Source: a virus (taxonomy: Duplodnaviria > Heunggongvirae > Uroviricota > Caudoviricetes). From it: 13,968 nt of DNA. The notes beneath the pieces are model-generated. The model was not told the DNA's origin, made no database searches, and saw only the letters and a list, made by a program, of their open reading frames with translations. Positions within the stretch are counted from its first letter, which is position 1. Each line of letters opens with the position of its first letter. Shown one piece after another: positions 6,666 to 13,968 of the stretch. The stretch lies in the IMG/VR virus record IMGVR_UViG_2537562191_000040, positions 1 through 13,968 of that record; one strand, 5' to 3'. Both the position numbers and the translations under genes were made by a program.

Positions 6666-6955
6666 TGGTGAATTTACGTAAAGCGGCTAAAGGCCAGATA
6701 TGCCAGATCAGAATCCCTGGCTACTGCAATCACAATCCCGAAACCTCTGTGCTGGCGCATTACAGGCTGGCGGGAACGTGCGGAACAGCGATAAAGCCAC
6801 ACGATATGCAGGCAGCGATTGCCTGTAACTCATGCCACGATTTAATCGACGGGAGAGTAAAAACCAGCGATTACACCAAAGAAGAATTGCGCCTGATGCA
6901 TGCAGAAGGTGTTTTTCGCACACAAGAGATCTGGAGAAAGGACGGTTATTTATGA
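6665..6955 (+). CDS. YbcO-like (DUF1364) Cys-rich putative nuclease (96 aa)
   Basis: 96 aa with conserved cysteines (CQIRIPGYC ... CGT ... CNSCHD) and ...NPETSVLAH..., matching the DLP12 YbcO pattern as I recall it. Its stop overlaps the next gene's start (ATGA). Confidence 0.7.
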   Translation: MVNLRKAAKGQICQIRIPGYCNHNPETSVLAHYRLAGTCGTAIKPHDMQAAIACNSCHDLIDGRVKTSDYTKEELRLMHAEGVFRTQEIWRKDGYL

Positions 6956-7506
6956 TTTACCCAACGAACACAGGAAAAAGCGGAGAGCACCTTCGTCTCA
7001 CCACGCTGGAAAGTGTCTGGATTCAGGGGAAACTACGTATGTGGGGGCGCTGGTCGTATATTGGCGGCGGTAAGACGGGAAATATGTTCAACCAGTTGCT
7101 GACCTCTAAAAAGCTGACAAAAACGGCAATTAACGAGGCGCTCCGGAGGATGAAAAAAGCAGGTCTGGACAAACCTAAACTTGAGGCTTTTTTGCGGGAT
7201 ATGATCAACGGCAAGCAAAAAAGCTGGCTGGTGCATTGTACCGATTCAGAGGCGTTAATAATCGACAGGGTTATTGGTGAAGTACTGGCAGGTTATCCCG
7301 GGCTGCTCAATGTTCTGAGTCAGCGTTATGTGGGGCGGGGGATGACTAAGCGCAAAATGGCTGAACTGCTGAATGATGCACATCCGGAATGGAGTTTAAG
7401 AACCTGTGAAAGACGCATTGAGCATTGGCTAAAGGTGGCAGAATTTATTTTGTACAAACCAATGGTTATGGCTTTTGGTATAGAGAAAAAAGTTATTGCT
7501 TTTTGA
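6952..7506 (+). CDS. Putative late-gene antiterminator Q-like protein (184 aa)
   Basis: Assigned mainly from position: just upstream of the tR'-like hairpin, the tRNA genes and the lysis cassette. The start at ATG 6952 is chosen over the ORF-track start at 6832 because of the ATGA overlap with the upstream stop. Confidence 0.5.
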   Translation: MIYPTNTGKSGEHLRLTTLESVWIQGKLRMWGRWSYIGGGKTGNMFNQLLTSKKLTKTAINEALRRMKKAGLDKPKLEAFLRDMINGKQKSWLVHCTDSEALIIDRVIGEVLAGYPGLLNVLSQRYVGRGMTKRKMAELLNDAHPEWSLRTCERRIEHWLKVAEFILYKPMVMAFGIEKKVIAF

Positions 7507-7583
7507 CGTAAAAACTGCTTCAATTCCGGTAAGCTTCGCAAAGCTGTATCGCGAGGCGAACCAAACGCATGAACTTTACCAGA
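7503..7583 (+). promoter_or_regulatory. Putative late promoter (pR'-like) and Q-utilisation region
   Basis: A TTGACG -35-like hexamer overlaps the Q stop (7503-7508). I found no convincing -10. The call rests on position between Q and tR'. Confidence 0.25.
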
Positions 7584-7607
7584 ACCCGCCATTGAGCGGG
7601 TTTTTTA
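7584..7607 (+). terminator. Rho-independent terminator (tR'-like): ACCCGC-CATTGA-GCGGGT followed by TTTTTT
   Basis: GC-rich hairpin plus T-run read from the sequence, about 80 nt downstream of the Q stop and upstream of the tRNAs. Confidence 0.7.
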
Positions 7608-7645
7608 TTGCGGAATTAATTACGGACCGTTATTATTCTGCTCCC

Positions 7646-7721
7646 GGCCCTTTAGCTCAGTGGTGAGAGCGAGCGACTCATAATCGCCAGGTCGCTGGTT
7701 CAAATCCAGCAAGGGCCACCA
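7646..7721 (+). tRNA. ileZ: tRNA with CAU anticodon, most likely tRNA-Ile2 (ileZ-type, lysidine-modified) rather than tRNA-Met
   Basis: Cloverleaf folded by hand: acceptor GGCCCTT/AAGGGCC, D-stem GCTC/GAGC, anticodon loop CTCATAA, T-arm GCTGG-TTCAAAT-CCAGC, encoded CCA. Stx-type phages carry ileZ at this position. Confidence 0.8.
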
Positions 7722-7821
7722 TCACAAACCGCCATTAGCTTATCAGGAAGAGCAGACGACACCATAACAGGGTTGTTGGTGCGGGGGCGGGTCCCCGATG
7801 GCGGTCCATTATCGGTATTCT

Positions 7822-7898
7822 GCGTTGTTAGCTCAGCCGGACAGAGCAATTGCCTTCTAAGCAATCGGTCAGTGGTTCGACTCCACTACAACGCGCCA
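7822..7898 (+). tRNA. tRNA-Arg (anticodon UCU, reads AGA)
   Basis: Cloverleaf folded by hand: acceptor GCGTTGT/ACAACGC, D-stem GCTC/GAGC, anticodon stem ATTGC/GCAAT with loop CTTCTAA, T-arm AGTGG-TTCGACT-CCACT, encoded CCA. Confidence 0.85.
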
Positions 7899-7910
7899 CA
7901 CTTATTTTCC

Positions 7911-7936
7911 AGGCTCGCTTCGGCGGGCCTTTTTTG
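7911..7936 (+). terminator. Rho-independent terminator (8-bp stem AGGCTCGC/GCGGGCCT with one G-U pair, UUCG tetraloop, T5)
   Basis: Read directly from the sequence, immediately 3' of tRNA-Arg. Confidence 0.7.
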
Positions 7937-8067
7937 TATCTGCGCCACGCCCGGCGCATATCAACCACAGAGCCTTTCGGGGGTGAGCTTACGGAGTGGT
8001 CAGTGTGACTTTCTCTGTGGGCAGATCGCTCCCGGGCGTTGGCTCACCCACCCAAAGGAACGTCACG

Positions 8068-8499
8068 ATGTTTGGAATCTTCAAAAAGAAAACCCGCAGA
8101 GCGGCAGCGGAAATTAAAAAGTTTGAGAAACGCGATCTGGCACAGGCGGTGATTAACGCTGCATACCTGGTGGCCTATGCAGATGGTGAATGCGAGGCAT
8201 CCGAGAAAGCGAAGATCGAACAGGTCTTACGTAATCAGCCTGCGTTGTCTGCGTTTACCTCGGAAATTAATGCGATTAGCGCAACTATTATCGGTCAGCT
8301 GGATACCAATTTTAAAATTGGTCGTCGTGCCGCGTTACGCGAGATTGAGGATGTGAAACACGATACGCGTGAAGCGGAAGATGTGCTGGATGTGGCGGTG
8401 GCCATTGCGGAGGCAGACGGCGAAATTGAGCCGGAAGAGCGCAAGGTGCTGGAAGAGATTGCCGGTGTTCTGGGTCTTCGTCTGGAGAATCACCTGTGA
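8068..8499 (+). CDS. TerB-like (tellurite-resistance TerB domain) protein (143 aa)
   Basis: ATG at 8068 with an AAAGGAA Shine-Dalgarno sequence. Repeated AxADGE...E...L elements (AYLVAYADGECEASEKAKIEQVL, VAIAEADGEIEPEERKVLEEIAG) fit the TerB domain. It occupies the position where stxAB lie in Stx phages. Confidence 0.55.
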   Translation: MFGIFKKKTRRAAAEIKKFEKRDLAQAVINAAYLVAYADGECEASEKAKIEQVLRNQPALSAFTSEINAISATIIGQLDTNFKIGRRAALREIEDVKHDTREAEDVLDVAVAIAEADGEIEPEERKVLEEIAGVLGLRLENHL

Positions 8500-8663
8500 C
8501 GGTAAAACTGCGCCTGGCTGTGGCTGCACTCCTGCTGTTTCTGGTGGTGATGGTGGATTTCACCAGCAGAATCATGTCGGTGCTGGCGGATGGGGTGCTG
8601 GTCTGCGGCATTGTGGTATTGCTGTGGCCGGTGATAAAAAGAAACAGCCTGCATAATGCTTGA
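8496..8663 (+). CDS. Possible small membrane protein (55 aa, start GTG overlapping the TerB-like stop; alternative ATG at 8550)
   Basis: Strongly hydrophobic (LAVAALLLFLVVMV ... VLVCGIVVLLWPV). It is below the ORF-track cutoff and the start codon is uncertain. Confidence 0.3.
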   Translation: MTVKLRLAVAALLLFLVVMVDFTSRIMSVLADGVLVCGIVVLLWPVIKRNSLHNA

Positions 8664-8830
8664 TTTTTTTGTTTGCTGTTTATTAAAAACACTTCTGCAT
8701 GGTGAATCCCCCTGTGCGGAGGGGCGATCAGCAACCAGGTATATGGGATAATCGCGGATTCAGGTGCTGATACTGAATTCACCGGGAGGCACCCGGCACC
8801 ATGCAAGAAAAAGAATGTGCATGCAAACAT

Positions 8831-8854
8831 GCCCCTCTCCGGAGGGGCTTTTTT
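8831..8854 (+). terminator. Rho-independent terminator (perfect 7-bp stem GCCCCTC/GAGGGGC, loop TCCG, T6)
   Basis: Read directly from the sequence. It lies in a roughly 400-bp non-coding stretch and has no obvious upstream CDS. Confidence 0.6.
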
Positions 8855-8981
8855 ATGGGTAAAAAATGCCCGAATGGGTTCGGGCAATAGCATGAGATAC
8901 TGATATTGTTGTGTTGTTATCGTGTGGATTTTAACCAGGGTTTATCAGGCTGCGCAACTGCGTGGCCTTTTTTCATTTCTT

Positions 8982-9026
8982 GGGCTGTAGTCCCCGTGTG
9001 TCATTCAGGCTTCCGGACTACAGCCC
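8982..9026. repeat. Inverted repeat with 12-bp perfect arms (GGGCTGTAGTCC ... GGACTACAGCCC) around a 21-nt spacer
   Basis: Read directly from the sequence, about 45 bp upstream of the esterase start. Confidence 0.6.
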
Positions 9027-9069
9027 ACTCCATATCTGATTTAATACACTATCCCGGCCGGGAGGAATA

Positions 9070-10923
9070 ATGACATTTAAACATTATGATGTTGTCAGGG
9101 CGGCGTCGCCGTCAGACCTTGCGGAAAAGCTGACACACAAACTGAAAGAGGGCTGGCAGCCATACGGCGGACCGGTTGCCATTACGCCGTACACACTGAT
9201 GCAGGCGGTGGCTATTGAAGGAGAGCCACAGGTCGGCCCTTCATCTGAGCCGGATTGGTACTACGTCATCGTACTGGCCGGGCAGTCCAATGCCATGGCT
9301 TACGGTGAAGGGCTTCCGCTGCCGGATTCATACGATGCTCCGGATCCGCGCATTAAACAGCTGGCGCGCCGCAGTACAGTGACGCCGGGCGGGGCTGCCT
9401 GCAGATATAACGATATTATTCCGGCTGACCACTGTCTGCATGATGTGCAGGATATGAGTACGCTGAATCATCCGAGGGCTGACCTGAGCAAAGGGCAGTA
9501 CGGCTGTGTCGGCCAGGGTTTACATATTGCCAAAAAACTGCTCCCGTATATCCCGAATAACGCGGGGATCCTGCTGGTACCATGCTGTCGTGGTGGTTCG
9601 GCATTTACCCAGGGCGCGGAGGGGACATTCAGCGAGTCCACGGGGGCCAGTCAGGATTCGGCACGCTGGGGGGTGGGCAAGCCGTTATATCAGGATCTGA
9701 TTTCCCGCACAAAAGCGGCATTGCAGAAAAATCCCAAAAACGTTCTGCTGGCCGTCTGCTGGATGCAGGGTGAGTTTGACATGAGCGCCGCCACCCACGC
9801 ACAGCAACCTGCGCTGTTTACAGCCATGCTGACACAGTTTCGTGCTGACCTCTCCGTGTTTAACGCGCAGTGCCATGGTGGCAGCGCTGCAGATGTGCCG
9901 TGGATTTGTGGTGACACGACGTATTACTGGAAAAATACATACGCTACCCAATACGACACCGTGTACGGCGGGTATAAAAACAGGGAGAGTGAGGGCGTTT
10001 ATTTTGTGCCCTTCATGACAGACGGTAACGGCGTCAATACCGCCACTAACGCGCCGGCAGAAGATCCGGATATTCCGGCATCAGGATATTACGGTGCGGC
10101 ATCGAGAACGAATGGAAACCAGGTATCATCAAACCGCCCGACACATTTCAGTTCATGGGCGCGCAGGAGCATTATTCCGGATCGTCTGGCAACCGCTATT
10201 CTGAACGCAGCCGGGCGCACCTCCGCCTTCATCAGTGGTAAGGCACCGGAAATCAAACCCTCGCCCGGCGGCAACACGCCATCGGGTCCGTCTGCAGATA
10301 CGTCCGTTCGCACAATCTCCCTGCTGCCGGCAGCCGGAGAGGCTGCTGCGCAGGGCTGGAGCATTAAGGATGGCGGAATTCAGTTGTCAGATGGTGTATT
10401 TAAGATCACCAAGCAGAGCAATAAAACCTGGTCCCTGACGCATCCGGTGGATGACGCAATTACCCTGCTGACACAGGGCGGCAGACTGAACTGTAAGTTC
10501 CGCCTGTCAGGCGCACTGACCAACAATCAGTTCGGGCTGGGGATTTATCTGTATACGGATGCTCCCGTTCCTGATGGTGTGGCGATGACGGGTACCGGTA
10601 ATCCGTTCCTGATGTCGTACTTCACTCAGACCACTGACGGCAGAGTGAATCTGATGCATCACAGGAAAGCCGGAAACACGAAGCTGGGGGAGTTCGGCGA
10701 TTACGGTAACGACTGGCAGACGCTGGAGCTGGTGTTCACCGCCGGCAGTGCCACGGTTACTCCGAAACTGAATGGAGTGGCTGGCCCGGCATTCCAGGTT
10801 ATAAAAGACAGTCTGACACTGGGACTGAATGCGCTGACGCTGACGGATGTTACAAAAAATGCAGCGTATGGCGTTGAGATAGAAAGTCTGGTGCTGGAGA
10901 TAAATGCACCGGCATCATCATAA
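9070..10923 (+). CDS. Prophage NanS-p/YjhS-type sialate O-acetylesterase (SGNH/SASA hydrolase, 617 aa)
   Basis: GGAGG Shine-Dalgarno sequence. An N-terminal DUF1737-like region is followed by the SGNH motif [14 protein letters not shown]. The position between the Q/tRNA region and the holin is typical of Stx-type phages. Confidence 0.8.
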
Positions 10924-10997
10924 AAAGTGAGCCAGTCAAATGGAAGGTATCGTTAAACTCACCGGTAGTGTCAGTGGGTCGTCTGAGACGCCTGCAT

Positions 10998-11028
10998 GAG
11001 TTATCAGAGCCATCAGTAGTTAACTGGT
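10998..11028 (+). terminator. Rho-independent terminator (9-bp stem with one G-U pair, 7-nt loop, T6)
   Basis: AGCCATCAG-TAGTTAA-CTGGTGGCT followed by TTTTTT, between the esterase and the holin. Confidence 0.6.
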
Positions 11029-11072
11029 GGCTTTTTTATTGTTGTCAGCTTCCGGATAACGGGAGACGGGGT

Positions 11073-11288
11073 ATGTACCAGATGGAAAAAATCACAACAG
11101 GTGTGTCATACACCACGTCAGCGGTAGGGACGGGATACTGGTTACTGCAACTGCTGGACAAAGTCTCTCCGTCCCAGTGGGTGGCAATAGGTGTACTGGG
11201 GAGTCTGCTGTTTGGCCTGCTGACGTATCTGACTAACCTGTATTTCAAAATCAGGGAGGACCGCCGTAAGACGGCGCGGGGAGACTAA
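11073..11288 (+). CDS. S: Class II holin / pinholin (S21-like, 71 aa) with a dual-start motif (Met1...Met4: MYQMEK)
   Basis: 71 aa with two transmembrane helices and the motif [35 protein letters not shown], close to phage 21 S as I recall it. GGGAGACGGGG Shine-Dalgarno sequence. The true start lies inside ORF-track entry 10968..11288. Confidence 0.85.
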
Positions 11289-11292
11289 AGCG

Positions 11293-11637
11293 ATGAAGAA
11301 AAAATACGAACTGGTTGTTAAAGAGATAAATAATTACCCGGATAAGATTGCTGTTACTGTGGCACTTGAAATTGGCGGGCATCCGTCGTTGTTGTTGCCA
11401 CATGTGGCGATTAGTCTTGACCGTACTGAAGGTGCCACGCTGGAGTTTTACGAAGCTGAGGCGAAAAAGCAGGCGAAGCAGTTTTTCATGGATGTTGCTG
11501 CCGGGTTATGTGAAGGGGATGGTCCGTTACCGGAAAAGCGTCCCGTAATTTTAGAGGCGCAGGATGTGTTGATAACCTACAGAGGAAAACTACCGGGAAT
11601 AATTACGGGTTCTCTGAAGACTCCACCGCTGGCCTGA
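11293..11637 (+). CDS. Hypothetical protein (114 aa) inserted between holin and endolysin
   Basis: ORF with an upstream GGGAGA Shine-Dalgarno sequence. No recognisable motif, no lipobox, no transmembrane segment. Confidence 0.5.
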   Translation: MKKKYELVVKEINNYPDKIAVTVALEIGGHPSLLLPHVAISLDRTEGATLEFYEAEAKKQAKQFFMDVAAGLCEGDGPLPEKRPVILEAQDVLITYRGKLPGIITGSLKTPPLA

Positions 11638-11687
11638 AGACTTAACATATCCAGGGATTTGAAATCGATAAACCCTGATAAATATCC

Positions 11688-12221
11688 ATGAACGCAAAAA
11701 TCAGATACGGCCTGTCGGCTGCCGTTCTGGCGCTGATTGCCGCAGGTGCGCCTGCGCCTGAAATCCTCGACCAGTTTCTGGATGAAAAGGAAGGTAACCA
11801 CACCACAGCATACCGTGATGGTGCGGGTATCTGGACCATCTGCCGTGGAGCCACCCGGGTGGATGGTAAGCCTGTTATTCCTGGCATGAAGCTGTCGAAG
11901 GAAAAATGCGACCGGGTTAACGCCATTGAGCGTGATAAGGCGCTGGCATGGGTGGAGAAAAACATCAGAGTGCCACTGACCGAACCCCAGAAAGCGGGGA
12001 TTGCGTCATTCTGTCCGTACAACATTGGCCCCGGTAAGTGTTTCCCGTCGACGTTTTATAAACGAATTAATGCAGGAGATCGAAAAGGTGCCTGCGAAGC
12101 GATTCGCTGGTGGATTAAGGACGGTGGCAGAGACTGCCGTATTCGCTCAAATAACTGTTATGGTCAGGTATCCCGTCGTGACCAGGAGAGCGCGCTGGCG
12201 TGCTGGGGAATCGACAGATAA
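11688..12221 (+). CDS. R: SAR endolysin (T4-lysozyme-like, GH24; 177 aa)
   Basis: N-terminal signal-anchor-release segment (LSAAVLALIAAGA) followed by the catalytic E-x8-D-x5-T triad (EGNHTTAYRDGAGIWT). It is paired with a pinholin as in phage 21. Confidence 0.85.
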   Translation: MNAKIRYGLSAAVLALIAAGAPAPEILDQFLDEKEGNHTTAYRDGAGIWTICRGATRVDGKPVIPGMKLSKEKCDRVNAIERDKALAWVEKNIRVPLTEPQKAGIASFCPYNIGPGKCFPSTFYKRINAGDRKGACEAIRWWIKDGGRDCRIRSNNCYGQVSRRDQESALACWGIDR

Positions 12222-12330
12222 GCAGAATATTTTGCTGAAAAATGACGTTGGCCAGCGCGGGCGGATAACACGAAATCCTGCGAACTGGCAAAATGTAAGT
12301 GAATAAAGTTAGGCAGATTATTTCACGCAG

Positions 12331-12358
12331 AGGCACCGTAATGGTGCCTTTGTCATTT
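12331..12358 (+). terminator. Putative rho-independent terminator (7-bp stem AGGCACC/GGTGCCT, loop GTAAT, T-rich tail)
   Basis: Read from the sequence downstream of the endolysin gene. The T-run is interrupted. Confidence 0.45.
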
Positions 12359-12494
12359 CTGCGCTTCGCACAAGCGTAAATAAACCAAAGAACCTTTCAG
12401 GATGAGCCCTGGTGGATAACCGGCAGTGGTCTGGTTAACCCTCTTTGGGCTGGTTATTCCTGTGCGCAGGGTTCATCACTAAAAGGAATCAACC

Positions 12495-13034
12495 ATGAAA
12501 GAGATGATTTCTGTCGATCATGAAATATCCATGAGTAGTCTGGATTTTCTGAATAACATTATTAATCCAGCCCGGGCAGAAGCCGGAGAAGTCCCTCATG
12601 AACCGCGTAAGTTTCTTGCAAAAATTGAGGATGAGCTAGAGCTTGATGGAACCGGAAAAAAATTCCGGTTAAACAATAACCAGACAAGAACGGCATACTA
12701 TGATCTGGATTTTGACCAGATGATGCTCGTTGGCATGAGGGAGTCAAAGGCCGTTCGTCGTTCTGTGCTGGCAAGACTCAAAGCGATGCATGGTATTCAG
12801 ATCCCCCGGACTTTACCTGAGGCGTTGCGATTTGCGGCAAAACTGGCTGAACAGAAAGCAGTGCTGGAAAATCAACTGGCAATAGCAGCGCCGAAGGCTG
12901 AATTTGTTGATAACTATGTTGAAGCATCTGGTCTGATGGGATTCCGGGAAGTTGCTAAGTTACTCGGTATCAAAGAAACCGATTTCCGGCTGTTTGAACC
13001 GCCCCGGGTTTCCTGGAGAGTGTTTTATCTGTGA
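12495..13034 (+). pseudogene. Phage antirepressor-like protein (Rha-like N-terminal region plus KilA-C/Ant-like region), 3' end truncated by IS insertion
   Basis: AAAGGA Shine-Dalgarno sequence. Motifs YYDLDFDQMMLVGMRESKAVRRSV and FREVAKLLGIKETDF. From about 12995 the reading frame runs into the IS terminal repeat, so the last roughly 13 codons and the stop are IS-derived. Confidence 0.6.
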
Positions 13035-13768
13035 ACTCAGGCTGCCAGATCATCGTTTCCGATGGAAGCATAATAAGCTTTTTCTGCTTCTGCCGGAGGA
13101 GTATGGCCCAGCCTTCCCAGCAATCGTCGATTGTTATACCAGTCCACCCACGTTAGTGTGGCCAGTTCCACTTCTGCACGGTTTTTCCAGCTCTTACGGT
13201 GTATTACCTCCGCTTTGTAAAGACCATTGATGCTCTCAGCCATCGCGTTGTCATACGAGTCGCCTGTACTCCCTGTTGATGCCAGTAATCCGGCTTCTTT
13301 TAGTCGCTCCGTATAGGCCAGTGACACATACTGAGAGCCTTTATCGCTGTGATGGATGGTGCCAGACGGACGACGGGCCCACAACGCCTGCTCCAGCGCA
13401 TCCAGCACGAATGTCGTTTCCATAGACGATGAGACCCGCCACCCCACGATGTATCCGGCAAACACATCAATGATAAACGCCACATAGACGAAGCCCTGCC
13501 ATGTGCTGACGTAAGTAAAATCAGCCACCCACAGCTGGTCAGGTCGTTCTGCCACGAACTGACGGTTTACGCGGTCGCCTGCGGCAACGGCTTTCCGGCT
13601 GATGGTCGTACGGACCTTTTTACCCCGGAGAACACCGGCAAGTCCCATAACCGCCATGAGACGTGCCACTGTACATCTGGCCACCCTGATTCCTTCCCGT
13701 AACAACTGACGCCAGACTTTACGCACACCGTACACCTGATGATTTTCATCGTATACGCGCTGTATCAC
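12995..13768 (-). mobile_element. IS3-family (IS629/IS3411-like) element, 3' part only, inverted relative to the copy at 18-813
   Basis: Reverse complement matches positions about 43-813 in every segment I spot-checked, apart from the 1-bp G-run difference. Homology ends at 12995 (terminal ...TGAACC) and at about 13768, beyond which the sequence is unrelated to copy 1. Confidence 0.8.
13037..13768 (-). pseudogene. IS3-family transposase OrfB fragment (frame intact, N-terminal part and orfA missing)
   Basis: ORF-track protein 13037..13783 (248 aa). Only the first few residues are non-IS sequence. It carries the DDE-transposase region ending ...ASIGNDDLAA. Confidence 0.75.
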
Positions 13769-13803
13769 ACACGCCGGGCGCAATCCGTCTGTGCTGGCAC
13801 TGC

Positions 13804-13968
13804 GATAACCAGCTGCGCGATCAGTTCACGGAACGGCTGGAATCAATGGCAACGGATAACTGTACCCGCTGGGTGTTGTCTGTTGTGCGTCGGGATCTCG
13901 GTTTTGATGACAGTCACGTTGTGACAATGCCGGAACTGTGCTGGTGGCTGATTCGTAATGACCTGGCG
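13804..13968 (+). other. Unidentified partial ORF running off the window end (...NQLRDQFTERLESMATDNCTRWVLSVVRRDLGFDDSHVVTMPELCWWLIRNDLA)
   Basis: Open frame with no stop before the window edge, in a different frame from ORF-track entry 13739..13924. Identity unknown. Confidence 0.2.

What the first reader, a model, noticed from the sequence alone, without database searches (positions are those of the whole stretch)
11073..12494. Pinholin-SAR endolysin lysis cassette with an extra 114-aa ORF and no spanin (Rz/Rz1) genes
Seen in sequence: a dual-start pinholin (MYQM...) and a SAR endolysin are separated by an unrecognised 114-aa ORF. The 270 bp after the endolysin hold only a terminator-like hairpin and no ORF with a transmembrane N-terminus or lipobox. 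Established knowledge: phage 21-type cassettes normally run S-R-Rz/Rz1. Inference: the spanin genes were deleted, which fits a defective prophage, and the inserted ORF may be a lysis regulator or moron.
Basis: partly seen in the sequence, partly recalled or inferred. Interest (0 to 1): 0.4.

Follow-up and report, generated by a model that had tools for sequence, protein, structure and literature searches.

The report
Ordinary Stx-phage lysis cassette, contig-truncated
This is the normal front half of a Shiga-toxin-type prophage lysis operon (holin, YdfR, endolysin, antirepressor); in this phage group the spanin genes lie further downstream, beyond an IS1203 insertion where this draft contig stops being reliable, so nothing shows they were deleted.

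Summary
The ORFs are real and sit at the stated coordinates. They are a phage-21-family class II holin (11073-11288), a 114-aa ORF (11293-11637) and a lysozyme with a SAR-like N-terminus (11688-12221). No spanin-like ORF exists anywhere in the window.

The inference of a spanin deletion fails. The 114-aa ORF belongs to a named family, DUF1327/YdfR. It lies between holin and endolysin in K-12 Qin, BP-4795, Stx2-86 and PhiR5_1, and is cleanly absent from phage Lys8385Vzw.

The 273 bp after R is the conserved R-ant spacer, not a deletion scar. In this phage group the order is S-(ydfR)-R-ant-small ORF-Rz/Rz1, so the spanins start about 1 kb after R.

In the window, ant is cut at 12994/12995 by IS1203. 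In the two complete genomes examined (O111 strains 110512 and 7-54 11A, 99.99-100% identical), a full IS1203, the ant 3' part and embedded Rz/Rz1 follow.

The window is a whole 13,968-bp draft contig (AEZU02000036.1). It starts with what I recognise as a 454 linker remnant. Its last 974 bp are identical to a second prophage 3.2 Mb away, which suggests a repeat-mediated misjoin.

Verdict: already known, low interest. The only open point is what YdfR does; a 2026 paper reports that the K-12 homologue binds RNase E.

The parts
8668..8860 (+). STnc100 sRNA match. I read it as the late-promoter leader/terminator region that heads the late operon (context only).
   Evidence: Rfam RF02076, 145.8 bits, E 5.7e-33. 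Its reading as the pR'/tR' region is inference.
9070..10923 (+). NanS-p-like sialate O-acetylesterase, the gene that precedes S in Stx-type phages
   Evidence: Pfam DUF1737 + SASA + DUF6645. Same position in BP-4795 and Stx2-86.
11006..11034 (+). Terminator-like hairpin with a T-run between the esterase gene and S
   Evidence: Consensus scan: 12-pair stem followed by TTTTTTATT.
11073..11288 (+). S: class II (phage 21 family) holin, 71 aa, Met1/Met4 dual start
   Evidence: PF04971 1.7e-32. phrog_20 holin. 76% identical to K-12 EssQ. One strongly hydrophobic segment at 36-58; residues 8-30 are weakly hydrophobic.
11293..11637 (+). ydfR-family gene (DUF1327), 114 aa, cytoplasmic accessory protein
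   Evidence: PF07041 7.4e-43. phrog_406 7.4e-63. 43% identical to K-12 YdfR over residues 1-74. AF2 model: three strands plus a long helix over 1-72, tail 73-114 low confidence.
11688..12221 (+). R: lysozyme with a SAR-like N-terminal segment, 177 aa
   Evidence: PF00959 1.4e-24. 90% identical to K-12 RrrQ. Matches PDB 3hde at 9.9e-17 and RrrD 4zpu at 2e-16. E35/D44/T50 motif and no Cys in residues 1-51.
12222..12494 (+). Conserved R-ant intergenic spacer with hairpin 12327-12353
   Evidence: 93% mean column identity with BP-4795, Stx2-86, Lys8385Vzw and PhiR5_1. Fold z = -3.5. No Rfam match at E<=1.
12495..12994 (+). 5' part (166 codons) of a KilAC antirepressor gene (ant), interrupted by IS1203
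   Evidence: PF03374 2.7e-08, matching only profile positions 1-41 of 108. The intact allele is 231 aa in Lys8385Vzw. Annotated as a partial pseudogene in L001 and L010.
12995..13766 (-). 3'-terminal 772 bp of IS1203 (IS3 family), starting at its terminal inverted repeat TGAACCGCCCCGGG
   Evidence: blastn against the full copy in L001 and the truncated copy in L003. rve/HTH_21 domains. Junction sequence.
13767..13968 (+). Sequence flanking a DUF968 pseudogene, belonging to a different lambdoid prophage; probable repeat-mediated misjoin
   Evidence: Window 12995-13968 is 100% identical to L003 5396-6369, at 4.896 Mb in strain 110512. No complete genome joins it to the lysis cassette.
22..813 (+). 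Second partial IS1203 copy, inverted relative to the right-hand one, inserted in a DUF4014 gene
   Evidence: This insertion site is shared with only one of 5,426 complete genomes, strain 7-54 11A.
1..21 (.). Non-genomic 21 nt (ATGCTATACGAAGTTATTACG) containing a loxP arm; tail of the 454 Titanium paired-end linker
   Evidence: Diverges from IS1203 exactly here. The identification as the linker rests on my own knowledge.

Best explanation
The region is the first half of a standard late lysis operon of a lambdoid, Stx-phage-type prophage of E. coli O111. This prophage carries no stx genes.

Gene order: late promoter leader, nanS-p-like esterase, S, ydfR, R, ant, (small membrane ORF), Rz/Rz1.

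Mechanism, inferred from the characterised phage 21 system:
- R is exported by Sec and held inactive in the inner membrane by its weakly hydrophobic N-terminal SAR segment.
- S accumulates, triggers and depolarises the membrane through small holes.
- R is then released, refolds and degrades the murein.
- The Rz/Rz1 spanin complex then disrupts the outer membrane.

The spanin genes of this phage group are not adjacent to R. They start about 1 kb downstream, after ant. In this lineage IS1203 inserted into ant, which pushes them to 2.5 kb from R.

The window is an entire draft contig whose sequence past the IS end is not the true continuation. Rz/Rz1 are therefore out of view, and nothing in the window shows them to be deleted.

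The 114-aa ORF is a YdfR/DUF1327 protein. It is soluble and dispensable for lysis, and it is present or absent as a clean cassette between S and R. [quoted passage not shown] That last step is inference.
For: Family assignments of S, YdfR, R and Ant.

Near-identity of window 813-13766 to complete O111 chromosomes: 99.992% to strain 110512. 100% over window 9000-13766 in the listed top hits among the 176 complete genomes that cover at least 80% of the query.

What follows in the two examined (110512 and 7-54 11A): full IS1203, ant 3' part, a 43-aa ORF, and Rz with embedded Rz1. These pass Pfam thresholds (PF03245 1.9e-49; PF06085 6e-21).

Same S-YdfR-R-ant-x-Rz order in phages BP-4795, Stx2-86 and PhiR5_1. 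S-R-ant-Rz without ydfR in Lys8385Vzw, with a clean indel. essQ-ydfR-rrrQ-rzpQ/rzoQ in K-12 Qin.

The R-ant spacer is conserved in length and sequence.

The window is the whole contig AEZU02000036.1 of GCA_000194335.2.

Literature. Almost all (99%) of the Stx phages analysed have a predicted SAR endolysin plus pinholin, and the Rz family is in 277 of them (PMC8136144). BP-4795, Stx2-86, 933W and phage 21 are listed in the lambda embedded spanin families (PMC6139136). K-12 YdfR binds the RNase E N-terminal domain via residues 1-72, co-purifies RNA and gives no growth defect on overexpression (PMC13232886). The window ORF is 43% identical to it over exactly that part. The 72-residue core is what the family conserves.
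Against: The window itself contains no spanin gene.

Its right-hand junction (ant 5' - truncated IS1203 - DUF968 flank) is a contiguous sequence in a public assembly. I could not inspect reads or the other contigs of that assembly, so a real rearrangement in this strain is not excluded.

No experiment on this S or R exists in what I read. Pinholin and SAR behaviour are predicted from family membership and composition only.

The N-terminal extension Met-Tyr-Gln lacks the basic residue present in K-12 EssQ (Met-Lys-Ser). By my recollection that residue makes the longer phage 21 product an antiholin, so 'dual start = antiholin/holin pair' is unproven here.

Confidence: 0.85

Rival explanations
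1. The junction in the window is real. In the source strain, recombination between the IS1203 in ant and the truncated IS1203 of a second prophage unlinked or removed ant 3'-Rz/Rz1. The S-ydfR-R cassette is then truly spanin-less, which is the reader's 'deletion' in a different form.
For: The sequence ant 5'-IS1203(772 bp)-DUF968 flank is contiguous in the deposited contig. IS1203 is present at about 35-40 places per O111 genome, so there is plenty of substrate for recombination.
Against: None of 5,426 complete E. coli genomes has this join. The best matches all stop at window 13766. In strain 110512 the two IS copies lie in direct orientation 3.23 Mb apart; the same relative orientation holds in every genome listed in both searches. 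The junction would therefore need a megabase deletion, which would not be viable, or a 2-Mb tandem duplication. The contig begins with what I recognise as an untrimmed 454 linker and has a 1-bp indel in the other IS copy, signs of an unpolished draft. In O111 drafts most contigs are reported to end at IS elements or inside prophages (PMC6602927).
Confidence: 0.12
2. The 114-aa YdfR protein is a dedicated lysis regulator (for example of holin timing or endolysin activation), not an RNA-metabolism accessory.
For: It is invariably placed between S and R. Its start lies 4 nt after the S stop, suggesting coupled translation. Inserting it separates R from the ribosome-binding region that R uses in Lys8385Vzw. 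A K-12 screen is cited as linking ydfR to envelope integrity (PMC13232886 citing Paradis-Bleau 2014).
Against: It has no transmembrane segment or signal sequence. Phage Lys8385Vzw lacks it in an otherwise near-identical cassette. Overexpression of K-12 YdfR causes no growth defect. The only biochemical data point to RNase E and RNA.
Confidence: 0.15
3. Lysis in this prophage uses a non-spanin outer-membrane disruptor encoded inside the window.
For: About 15% of phages are reported to lack spanins (abstract of bioRxiv 10.1101/515445, listed).
Against: Identical prophages carry canonical Rz/Rz1. Every ORF of the cassette in the window is assigned to another family.
Confidence: 0.02

Closest known systems
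Lysis region of Stx1 phage BP-4795 (NC_004813: S, ORF47 'YdfR family', R, ant, ORF50, Rz)
   Same: Same gene order and spacing. 92.6% DNA identity over window 11004-12499. 114-aa YdfR, 177-aa R and the same R-ant spacer with its hairpin.
   Different: BP-4795 has a different, intact ant allele (189 aa) and no IS1203, so Rz starts 994 bp after R. It carries stx1 upstream; the window has no stx.
E. coli K-12 cryptic prophage Qin: essQ-ydfR-rrrQ-rzpQ/rzoQ
   Same: Holin 76%, endolysin 90% and YdfR 43% (residues 1-74) identical. YdfR sits between holin and endolysin.
   Different: Qin has no ant gene, so the spanin genes directly follow rrrQ. K-12 YdfR is 103 aa, and its C-terminal part did not align with the window protein's conserved tail in BLASTP.
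Phage 21 S21-R21-Rz/Rz1 (pinholin / SAR endolysin paradigm)
   Same: S matches the P21 holin family over its full length. R matches the PDB chain 3hde at 9.9e-17 over residues 30-174 (that 3hde is R21 is my own knowledge). There are two in-frame start codons three codons apart.
   Different: In phage 21, as I recall it, S, R and Rz/Rz1 are contiguous, with no ydfR and no ant. The N-terminal extension here is Met-Tyr-Gln, without the Lys of Met-Lys-Ser. By E-value and score R is only distantly related to R21.
Escherichia phage Lys8385Vzw (MT225100), from an O103:H11 host
   Same: 96.7% DNA identity, same ant allele (231 aa, intact) and the same kind of Rz ('lysis protein', 152 aa).
   Different: It lacks ydfR altogether: R starts 4 nt after S. 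This shows that ydfR is dispensable and is a clean indel.

Membership tests
Phage 21-type pinholin (class II holin, PF04971) | Sequence membership in the P21 holin S family over the full length | tested here: met
   PF04971 1.7e-32, profile positions 1-63 of 64. 76% identical to EssQ.
Phage 21-type pinholin (class II holin, PF04971) | Two transmembrane segments: a weakly hydrophobic, Gly/Ser/Thr/Ala-rich TMD1 that can leave the membrane, and a strongly hydrophobic TMD2 | tested here: met
   Kyte-Doolittle 17-residue windows exceed 1.0 only for windows lying within residues 30-60 (peak 2.14 at 37-53). Residues 8-30 never reach 1.0. This is composition only; topology dynamics were not tested.
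Phage 21-type pinholin (class II holin, PF04971) | Dual-start motif giving a longer antiholin whose extension carries an extra positive charge | tested here: inconclusive
   Met1 and Met4 are present. The extension is Tyr-Gln with no basic residue, whereas EssQ has Lys-Ser.
Phage 21-type pinholin (class II holin, PF04971) | Forms small holes that depolarise the membrane but do not pass folded endolysin | not testable with these tools
   Needs expression and physiology experiments.
SAR endolysin, R21 type | T4-lysozyme-like muramidase domain with the catalytic motif Glu-x8-Asp/Cys-x5-Thr | tested here: met
   PF00959 1.4e-24. E35-x8-D44-x5-T50.
SAR endolysin, R21 type | N-terminal weakly hydrophobic segment rich in Gly/Ala/Ser, acting as an uncleaved signal-anchor | tested here: inconclusive
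   17-residue windows starting at residues 5-11 have KD 1.3-1.8 and 47-59% Gly/Ala/Ser/Thr. The Rz transmembrane segment has KD 2.2-2.5 and about 35%. Absence of signal-peptidase cleavage was not tested.
SAR endolysin, R21 type | No regulatory Cys in the SAR segment (this separates it from the P1 Lyz disulfide-isomerisation type) | tested here: met
   The first Cys is at residue 52.
SAR endolysin, R21 type | Sec-dependent export and release from the membrane on depolarisation | not testable with these tools
   Experimental property.
DUF1327 / YdfR family | Sequence membership | tested here: met
   PF07041 7.4e-43 against a cutoff of 25 bits. phrog_406 7.4e-63.
DUF1327 / YdfR family | Gene located between the class II holin and the endolysin of lambdoid lysis cassettes | tested here: met
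   Window, K-12 Qin, BP-4795, Stx2-86, PhiR5_1.
DUF1327 / YdfR family | Binding to the RNase E catalytic domain through residues 1-72 (reported for K-12 YdfR only) | not testable with these tools
   PMC13232886. The window protein is 43% identical over residues 1-74.
Lambda-type embedded two-component spanin (Rz/Rz1) | i-spanin with an N-terminal transmembrane segment and a periplasmic coiled-coil domain (PF03245) | tested here: not met
   Absent from the window. Present in the same prophage in complete genomes at L001 17742-18200, PF03245 1.9e-49, with the best 17-residue window (residues 4-20) at KD 2.5.
Lambda-type embedded two-component spanin (Rz/Rz1) | o-spanin lipoprotein with a lipobox, embedded in the +1 frame of Rz (PF06085) | tested here: not met
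   No lipobox ORF in the window. Present at L001 17968-18138: MKLCVLMLPLVVSAC..., PF06085 6e-21.
Spanin-deleted (degraded) lysis cassette | A deletion scar: sequence missing after R relative to intact relatives | tested here: not met
   The 273-bp R-ant spacer aligns end to end with those of four phages that have complete cassettes, at 93% mean column identity.
IS1203/IS629 (IS3 family) insertion | Terminal inverted repeats and a 3-bp target duplication flanking a complete element | tested here: inconclusive
   In L001 the element is complete, with GTT on both sides. In the window only the 772-bp 3' part is present.

The most novel reading that the evidence does not exclude
YdfR/DUF1327 proteins are late-operon phage factors whose 72-residue three-strand-plus-helix core docks on the catalytic domain of host RNase E, and possibly on RNA, to retune mRNA decay in the minutes before lysis. 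The natural presence/absence polymorphism between otherwise near-identical cassettes (this prophage or BP-4795 versus Lys8385Vzw) would then be a ready-made test system. The near-invariant but predicted-disordered C-terminal 40 residues would be a second binding motif.
Probability: 0.2. Interest if true: 0.5.

Novelty: already known. Interest (0 to 1): 0.1.

Why it matters
It matters mainly as a caution. In Stx-type lambdoid phages, 'no spanin next to the endolysin' is the normal layout, because ant lies in between. Draft contigs of O111 genomes end or misjoin at IS1203, so absence from a contig is not evidence of deletion. The one part with some research value is YdfR. It is a small, narrowly distributed family: 94 clusters at 50% identity among 1.84 billion representative proteins. 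It sits in lysis cassettes and now has a first biochemical lead, RNase E binding.

Tried and rejected
1. Spanins hidden in the window. Lipobox scans at two stringencies, a scan for ORFs with an N-terminal transmembrane segment, and tblastn with Rz, Rz1, the ant 3' part and the 43-aa ORF all found nothing.
2. An RNA element in 10900-13000. Rfam gave no match at E <= 1.
4. Finding the source. An exact search for the left IS junction in viral contigs found nothing. A look-up of the 212-aa frameshifted transposase ORF found nothing. The 79-aa edge ORF succeeded.
5. A real IS-mediated deletion. Considered and down-weighted because of the direct orientation of the two IS copies 3.23 Mb apart and the absence of the join from all complete genomes.
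Full report
**1. Observation**

- S is 11073-11288: 71 aa, MYQMEK..., with Met codons at positions 1 and 4.
- A 114-aa ORF is 11293-11637 and starts 4 nt after the S stop.
- R is 11688-12221 (177 aa).
- A 273-bp non-coding stretch follows, up to an ATG at 12495.

Pfam places S in PF04971 'Bacteriophage P21 holin S' (1.7e-32, full length). It places R in PF00959 phage lysozyme (1.4e-24) and the middle ORF in PF07041 DUF1327 (7.4e-43). PHROGs agrees: holin, endolysin and an unknown-function family, phrog_406.

A hydropathy calculation gives the following.
- S has one strongly hydrophobic segment (36-58), preceded by a weakly hydrophobic stretch at 8-30.
- R has a moderately hydrophobic, Gly/Ala/Ser-rich segment at residues 5-27 (KD 1.3-1.8). 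The Rz membrane anchor scores 2.2-2.5.
- R has the motif E35-x8-D44-x5-T50 and no Cys before residue 52.

These features fit a pinholin plus an R21-type SAR endolysin. That is what a survey reports for almost all (99%) of the Stx phages it analysed (PMC8136144).

Two lipobox scans, a scan for i-spanin-like ORFs and tblastn with a bona fide Rz/Rz1 pair find no spanin anywhere in the 13,968 bases.

One correction: the 114-aa ORF is a named family (YdfR/DUF1327), not an unrecognised ORF.

**2. What surrounds it**

The gene at 12495 is a KilAC antirepressor (ant). Only profile positions 1-41 of 108 are matched, because an IS3-family element begins at 12995 on the minus strand. Its terminal repeat there is TGAACCGCCCCGGG.

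Upstream lie a NanS-p-like esterase (9070-10923), an STnc100 match (8668-8860), an AgvB sRNA (8861-8922, minus strand) and two tRNAs. This is the usual late region of Stx-type lambdoid phages, here without stx genes.

**3. Relatives**

- Window 813-13766 is 99.992% identical to the chromosome of O111:H- strain 110512.
- Window 9000-13766 is covered at 80% or more by 176 complete E. coli genomes; the listed top hits, mostly O111, are 100% identical.
- In strain 110512 (L001) and in strain 7-54 11A (L010) the IS1203 in ant is full length. L010 is the only complete genome that shares the rare second IS1203 insertion at window 813.
- In both, the IS is followed by the ant 3' part, a 43-aa hydrophobic ORF and a 152-aa 'lysis protein'.
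- That protein is Rz: PF03245 at 1.9e-49, with an N-terminal membrane segment.
- Its +1 frame holds Rz1: MKLCVLMLPLVVSAC..., PF06085 at 6e-21.
- The spanin pair therefore exists in this prophage, 2.5 kb downstream of R.

**4. The layout is the norm for this phage group**

- BP-4795: S, YdfR family (114 aa), R, ant, a 48-aa ORF, Rz.
- Stx2-86: S, YdfR family (268 aa), R, ant, Rz/Rz1, bor.
- PhiR5_1: S, DUF1327 protein (211 aa), R, an ant-like gene, small ORFs, Rz.
- Lys8385Vzw: S, R, ant (231 aa, the same allele as here), Rz, with no ydfR.
- K-12 Qin: essQ-ydfR-rrrQ-rzpQ/rzoQ.

In these phages Rz starts about 1.0-1.4 kb after the R stop, because ant lies between them.

The 273-bp stretch after R aligns end to end with the R-ant spacers of four of these phages, at 93% mean column identity, hairpin included. 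It is therefore not a deletion scar.

BP-4795, Stx2-86, 933W and phage 21 are all listed in the lambda embedded i- and o-spanin families (PMC6139136). [quoted passage not shown]

**5. Why the window shows no spanins**

A look-up of the 79-aa ORF at the left edge shows that the window is the complete contig AEZU02000036.1 (13,968 bp) of draft assembly GCA_000194335.2.

- Bases 1-21 (ATGCTATACGAAGTTATTACG) diverge from IS1203 and contain a loxP arm. From my own knowledge this is the tail of the 454 Titanium paired-end linker.
- The left IS copy carries a 1-bp indel.
- At the right end the IS1203 sequence stops after 772 bp (13766) and continues into sequence next to a DUF968 pseudogene.
- Window 12995-13968 is 100% identical to a truncated IS1203 plus its flank in a second lambdoid prophage, at 4.896 Mb of strain 110512.
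- Forty-two complete genomes have that junction, always in the second prophage where I looked. None of 5,426 complete genomes joins it to the lysis cassette.
- In strain 110512 the two IS copies are in direct orientation, 3.23 Mb apart. The same relative orientation holds in every genome listed in both searches. A real crossover giving this junction would need a megabase deletion or a 2-Mb duplication.
- In O111 draft assemblies most contigs are reported to end at IS elements or in prophages (PMC6602927).

I conclude, at roughly 85:12, that the contig is misjoined through the repeat and that the strain has the usual ant::IS1203-ant 3'-Rz/Rz1 continuation. I could not check the other contigs or the reads.

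**6. The extra ORF**

ydfR is a clean presence/absence cassette. Its boundaries are the S stop codon and about the sixth codon of R. R begins MNAKIRYG when ydfR is present and MSRKLRYG in Lys8385Vzw, where it is absent. The phages also carry size variants of 114, 211 and 268 aa; the protein search adds 116-, 176- and 183-aa forms, and K-12 has 103 aa.

The family is narrow.
- 276 clusters at 90% identity; every hit that carries a source name is from Escherichia or Shigella.
- 94 clusters at 50% identity among 1.84 billion representatives. These include 72-76-aa proteins that match only profile positions 1-72.

AlphaFold2 predicts three strands and a long helix for residues 1-72 (pLDDT 70-89). 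The tail 73-114 has low confidence although it is almost invariant in the alignment. There is no transmembrane segment.

Structure searches gave nothing significant.

A 2026 study found the following for K-12 YdfR (PMC13232886).
- It binds the N-terminal catalytic half of RNase E in two-hybrid and co-purification assays, through residues 1-72.
- It co-purifies RNA.
- On overexpression it causes no growth defect and little transcriptome change.

The window protein is 43% identical to K-12 YdfR over exactly residues 1-74.

My best reading is a dispensable cytoplasmic accessory protein acting on RNA metabolism. A role as a lysis-timing regulator is not excluded (about 0.15).

**7. Mechanism: shown versus inferred**

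Shown here:
- gene identities;
- gene order;
- the IS insertion point;
- the presence of Rz/Rz1 in the same prophage in the two complete genomes examined;
- conservation of the spacer;
- the contig origin.

Inferred from the phage 21 paradigm (established knowledge):
- Sec export and membrane tethering of R;
- depolarisation by S;
- release and activation of R;
- outer-membrane disruption by Rz/Rz1.

Uncertain:
- whether the Met1 product acts as an antiholin, since its extension (Tyr-Gln) lacks the basic residue seen in EssQ (Lys-Ser);
- whether late transcription reads through the 1.3-kb IS1203 to express Rz/Rz1.

**8. Verdict**

This is an already known, widespread cassette architecture. The 'missing spanins' are an effect of where the genes lie in this phage group and of a draft contig that ends or misjoins at an IS element. 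Interest is low. The only part worth following is the function of YdfR.

Noticed in passing
window 1-21: The contig starts with ATGCTATACGAAGTTATTACG, which is not IS1203 sequence and contains a loxP arm. I recognise it as the tail of the 454 Titanium paired-end linker, that is, untrimmed library sequence in a public assembly (the identification is from my own knowledge).
   Followed up: partly
window 22-813: A second partial IS1203 copy, inverted relative to the one at 12995-13766, is inserted in a DUF4014 gene. Only one of 5,426 complete genomes (O111:H8 7-54 11A) shares this insertion site. The copy has a 1-bp indel that splits orfB, either a sequencing error or a real frameshift.
   Followed up: partly
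window 13767-13968 and L003 5396-6369: The right end of the contig belongs to another lambdoid prophage (ymfL - truncated IS1203 - DUF968 pseudogene - Q - tRNAs - esterase - holin). That prophage's own lysis cassette is also cut by an IS1203 just after its holin.
   Followed up: partly
window 8668-8922: Rfam finds STnc100 (8668-8860, + strand, 145.8 bits) immediately followed by the anti-GcvB sRNA AgvB (8861-8922, - strand, 96.5 bits), upstream of the esterase gene.
   Followed up: no
window 7646-8663: tRNAs lie at 7646-7718 and 7822-7895 (annotated tRNA-Ile and tRNA-Arg in the complete relative). They are followed by a TerB-family gene (8068-8499) and a DUF3927 gene in the position where Stx phages carry stx. 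This prophage has no toxin genes.
   Followed up: no
window 2067-5566: A type II C5 DNA methyltransferase (2067-3218, PADLOC MTase_II 2e-98) lies next to two convergent genes: a Methyltransf_35 protein (3186-4178, - strand) and an HATPase_c_3 ATP-binding protein (4175-5566, - strand). Neither convergent gene has a PADLOC hit. This may be an uncharacterised restriction- or defence-like island.
   Followed up: partly
window 11509-11637 (YdfR residues 73-114): The C-terminal 40 residues are almost invariant across the family alignment, yet they are predicted with pLDDT of about 32. Longer family members add a helical extension after them. This could be a binding motif, or simply recent shared ancestry.
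   Followed up: no
L001 17599-17730: A 43-aa very hydrophobic ORF (phrog_4906, unknown function) sits between ant and Rz. BP-4795 has a 48-aa ORF in the same position.
   Followed up: no
L001 24327-26749: In the complete-genome copy of this prophage the portal gene is annotated as frameshifted. The prophage is therefore probably defective whatever the state of the lysis cassette.
   Followed up: no
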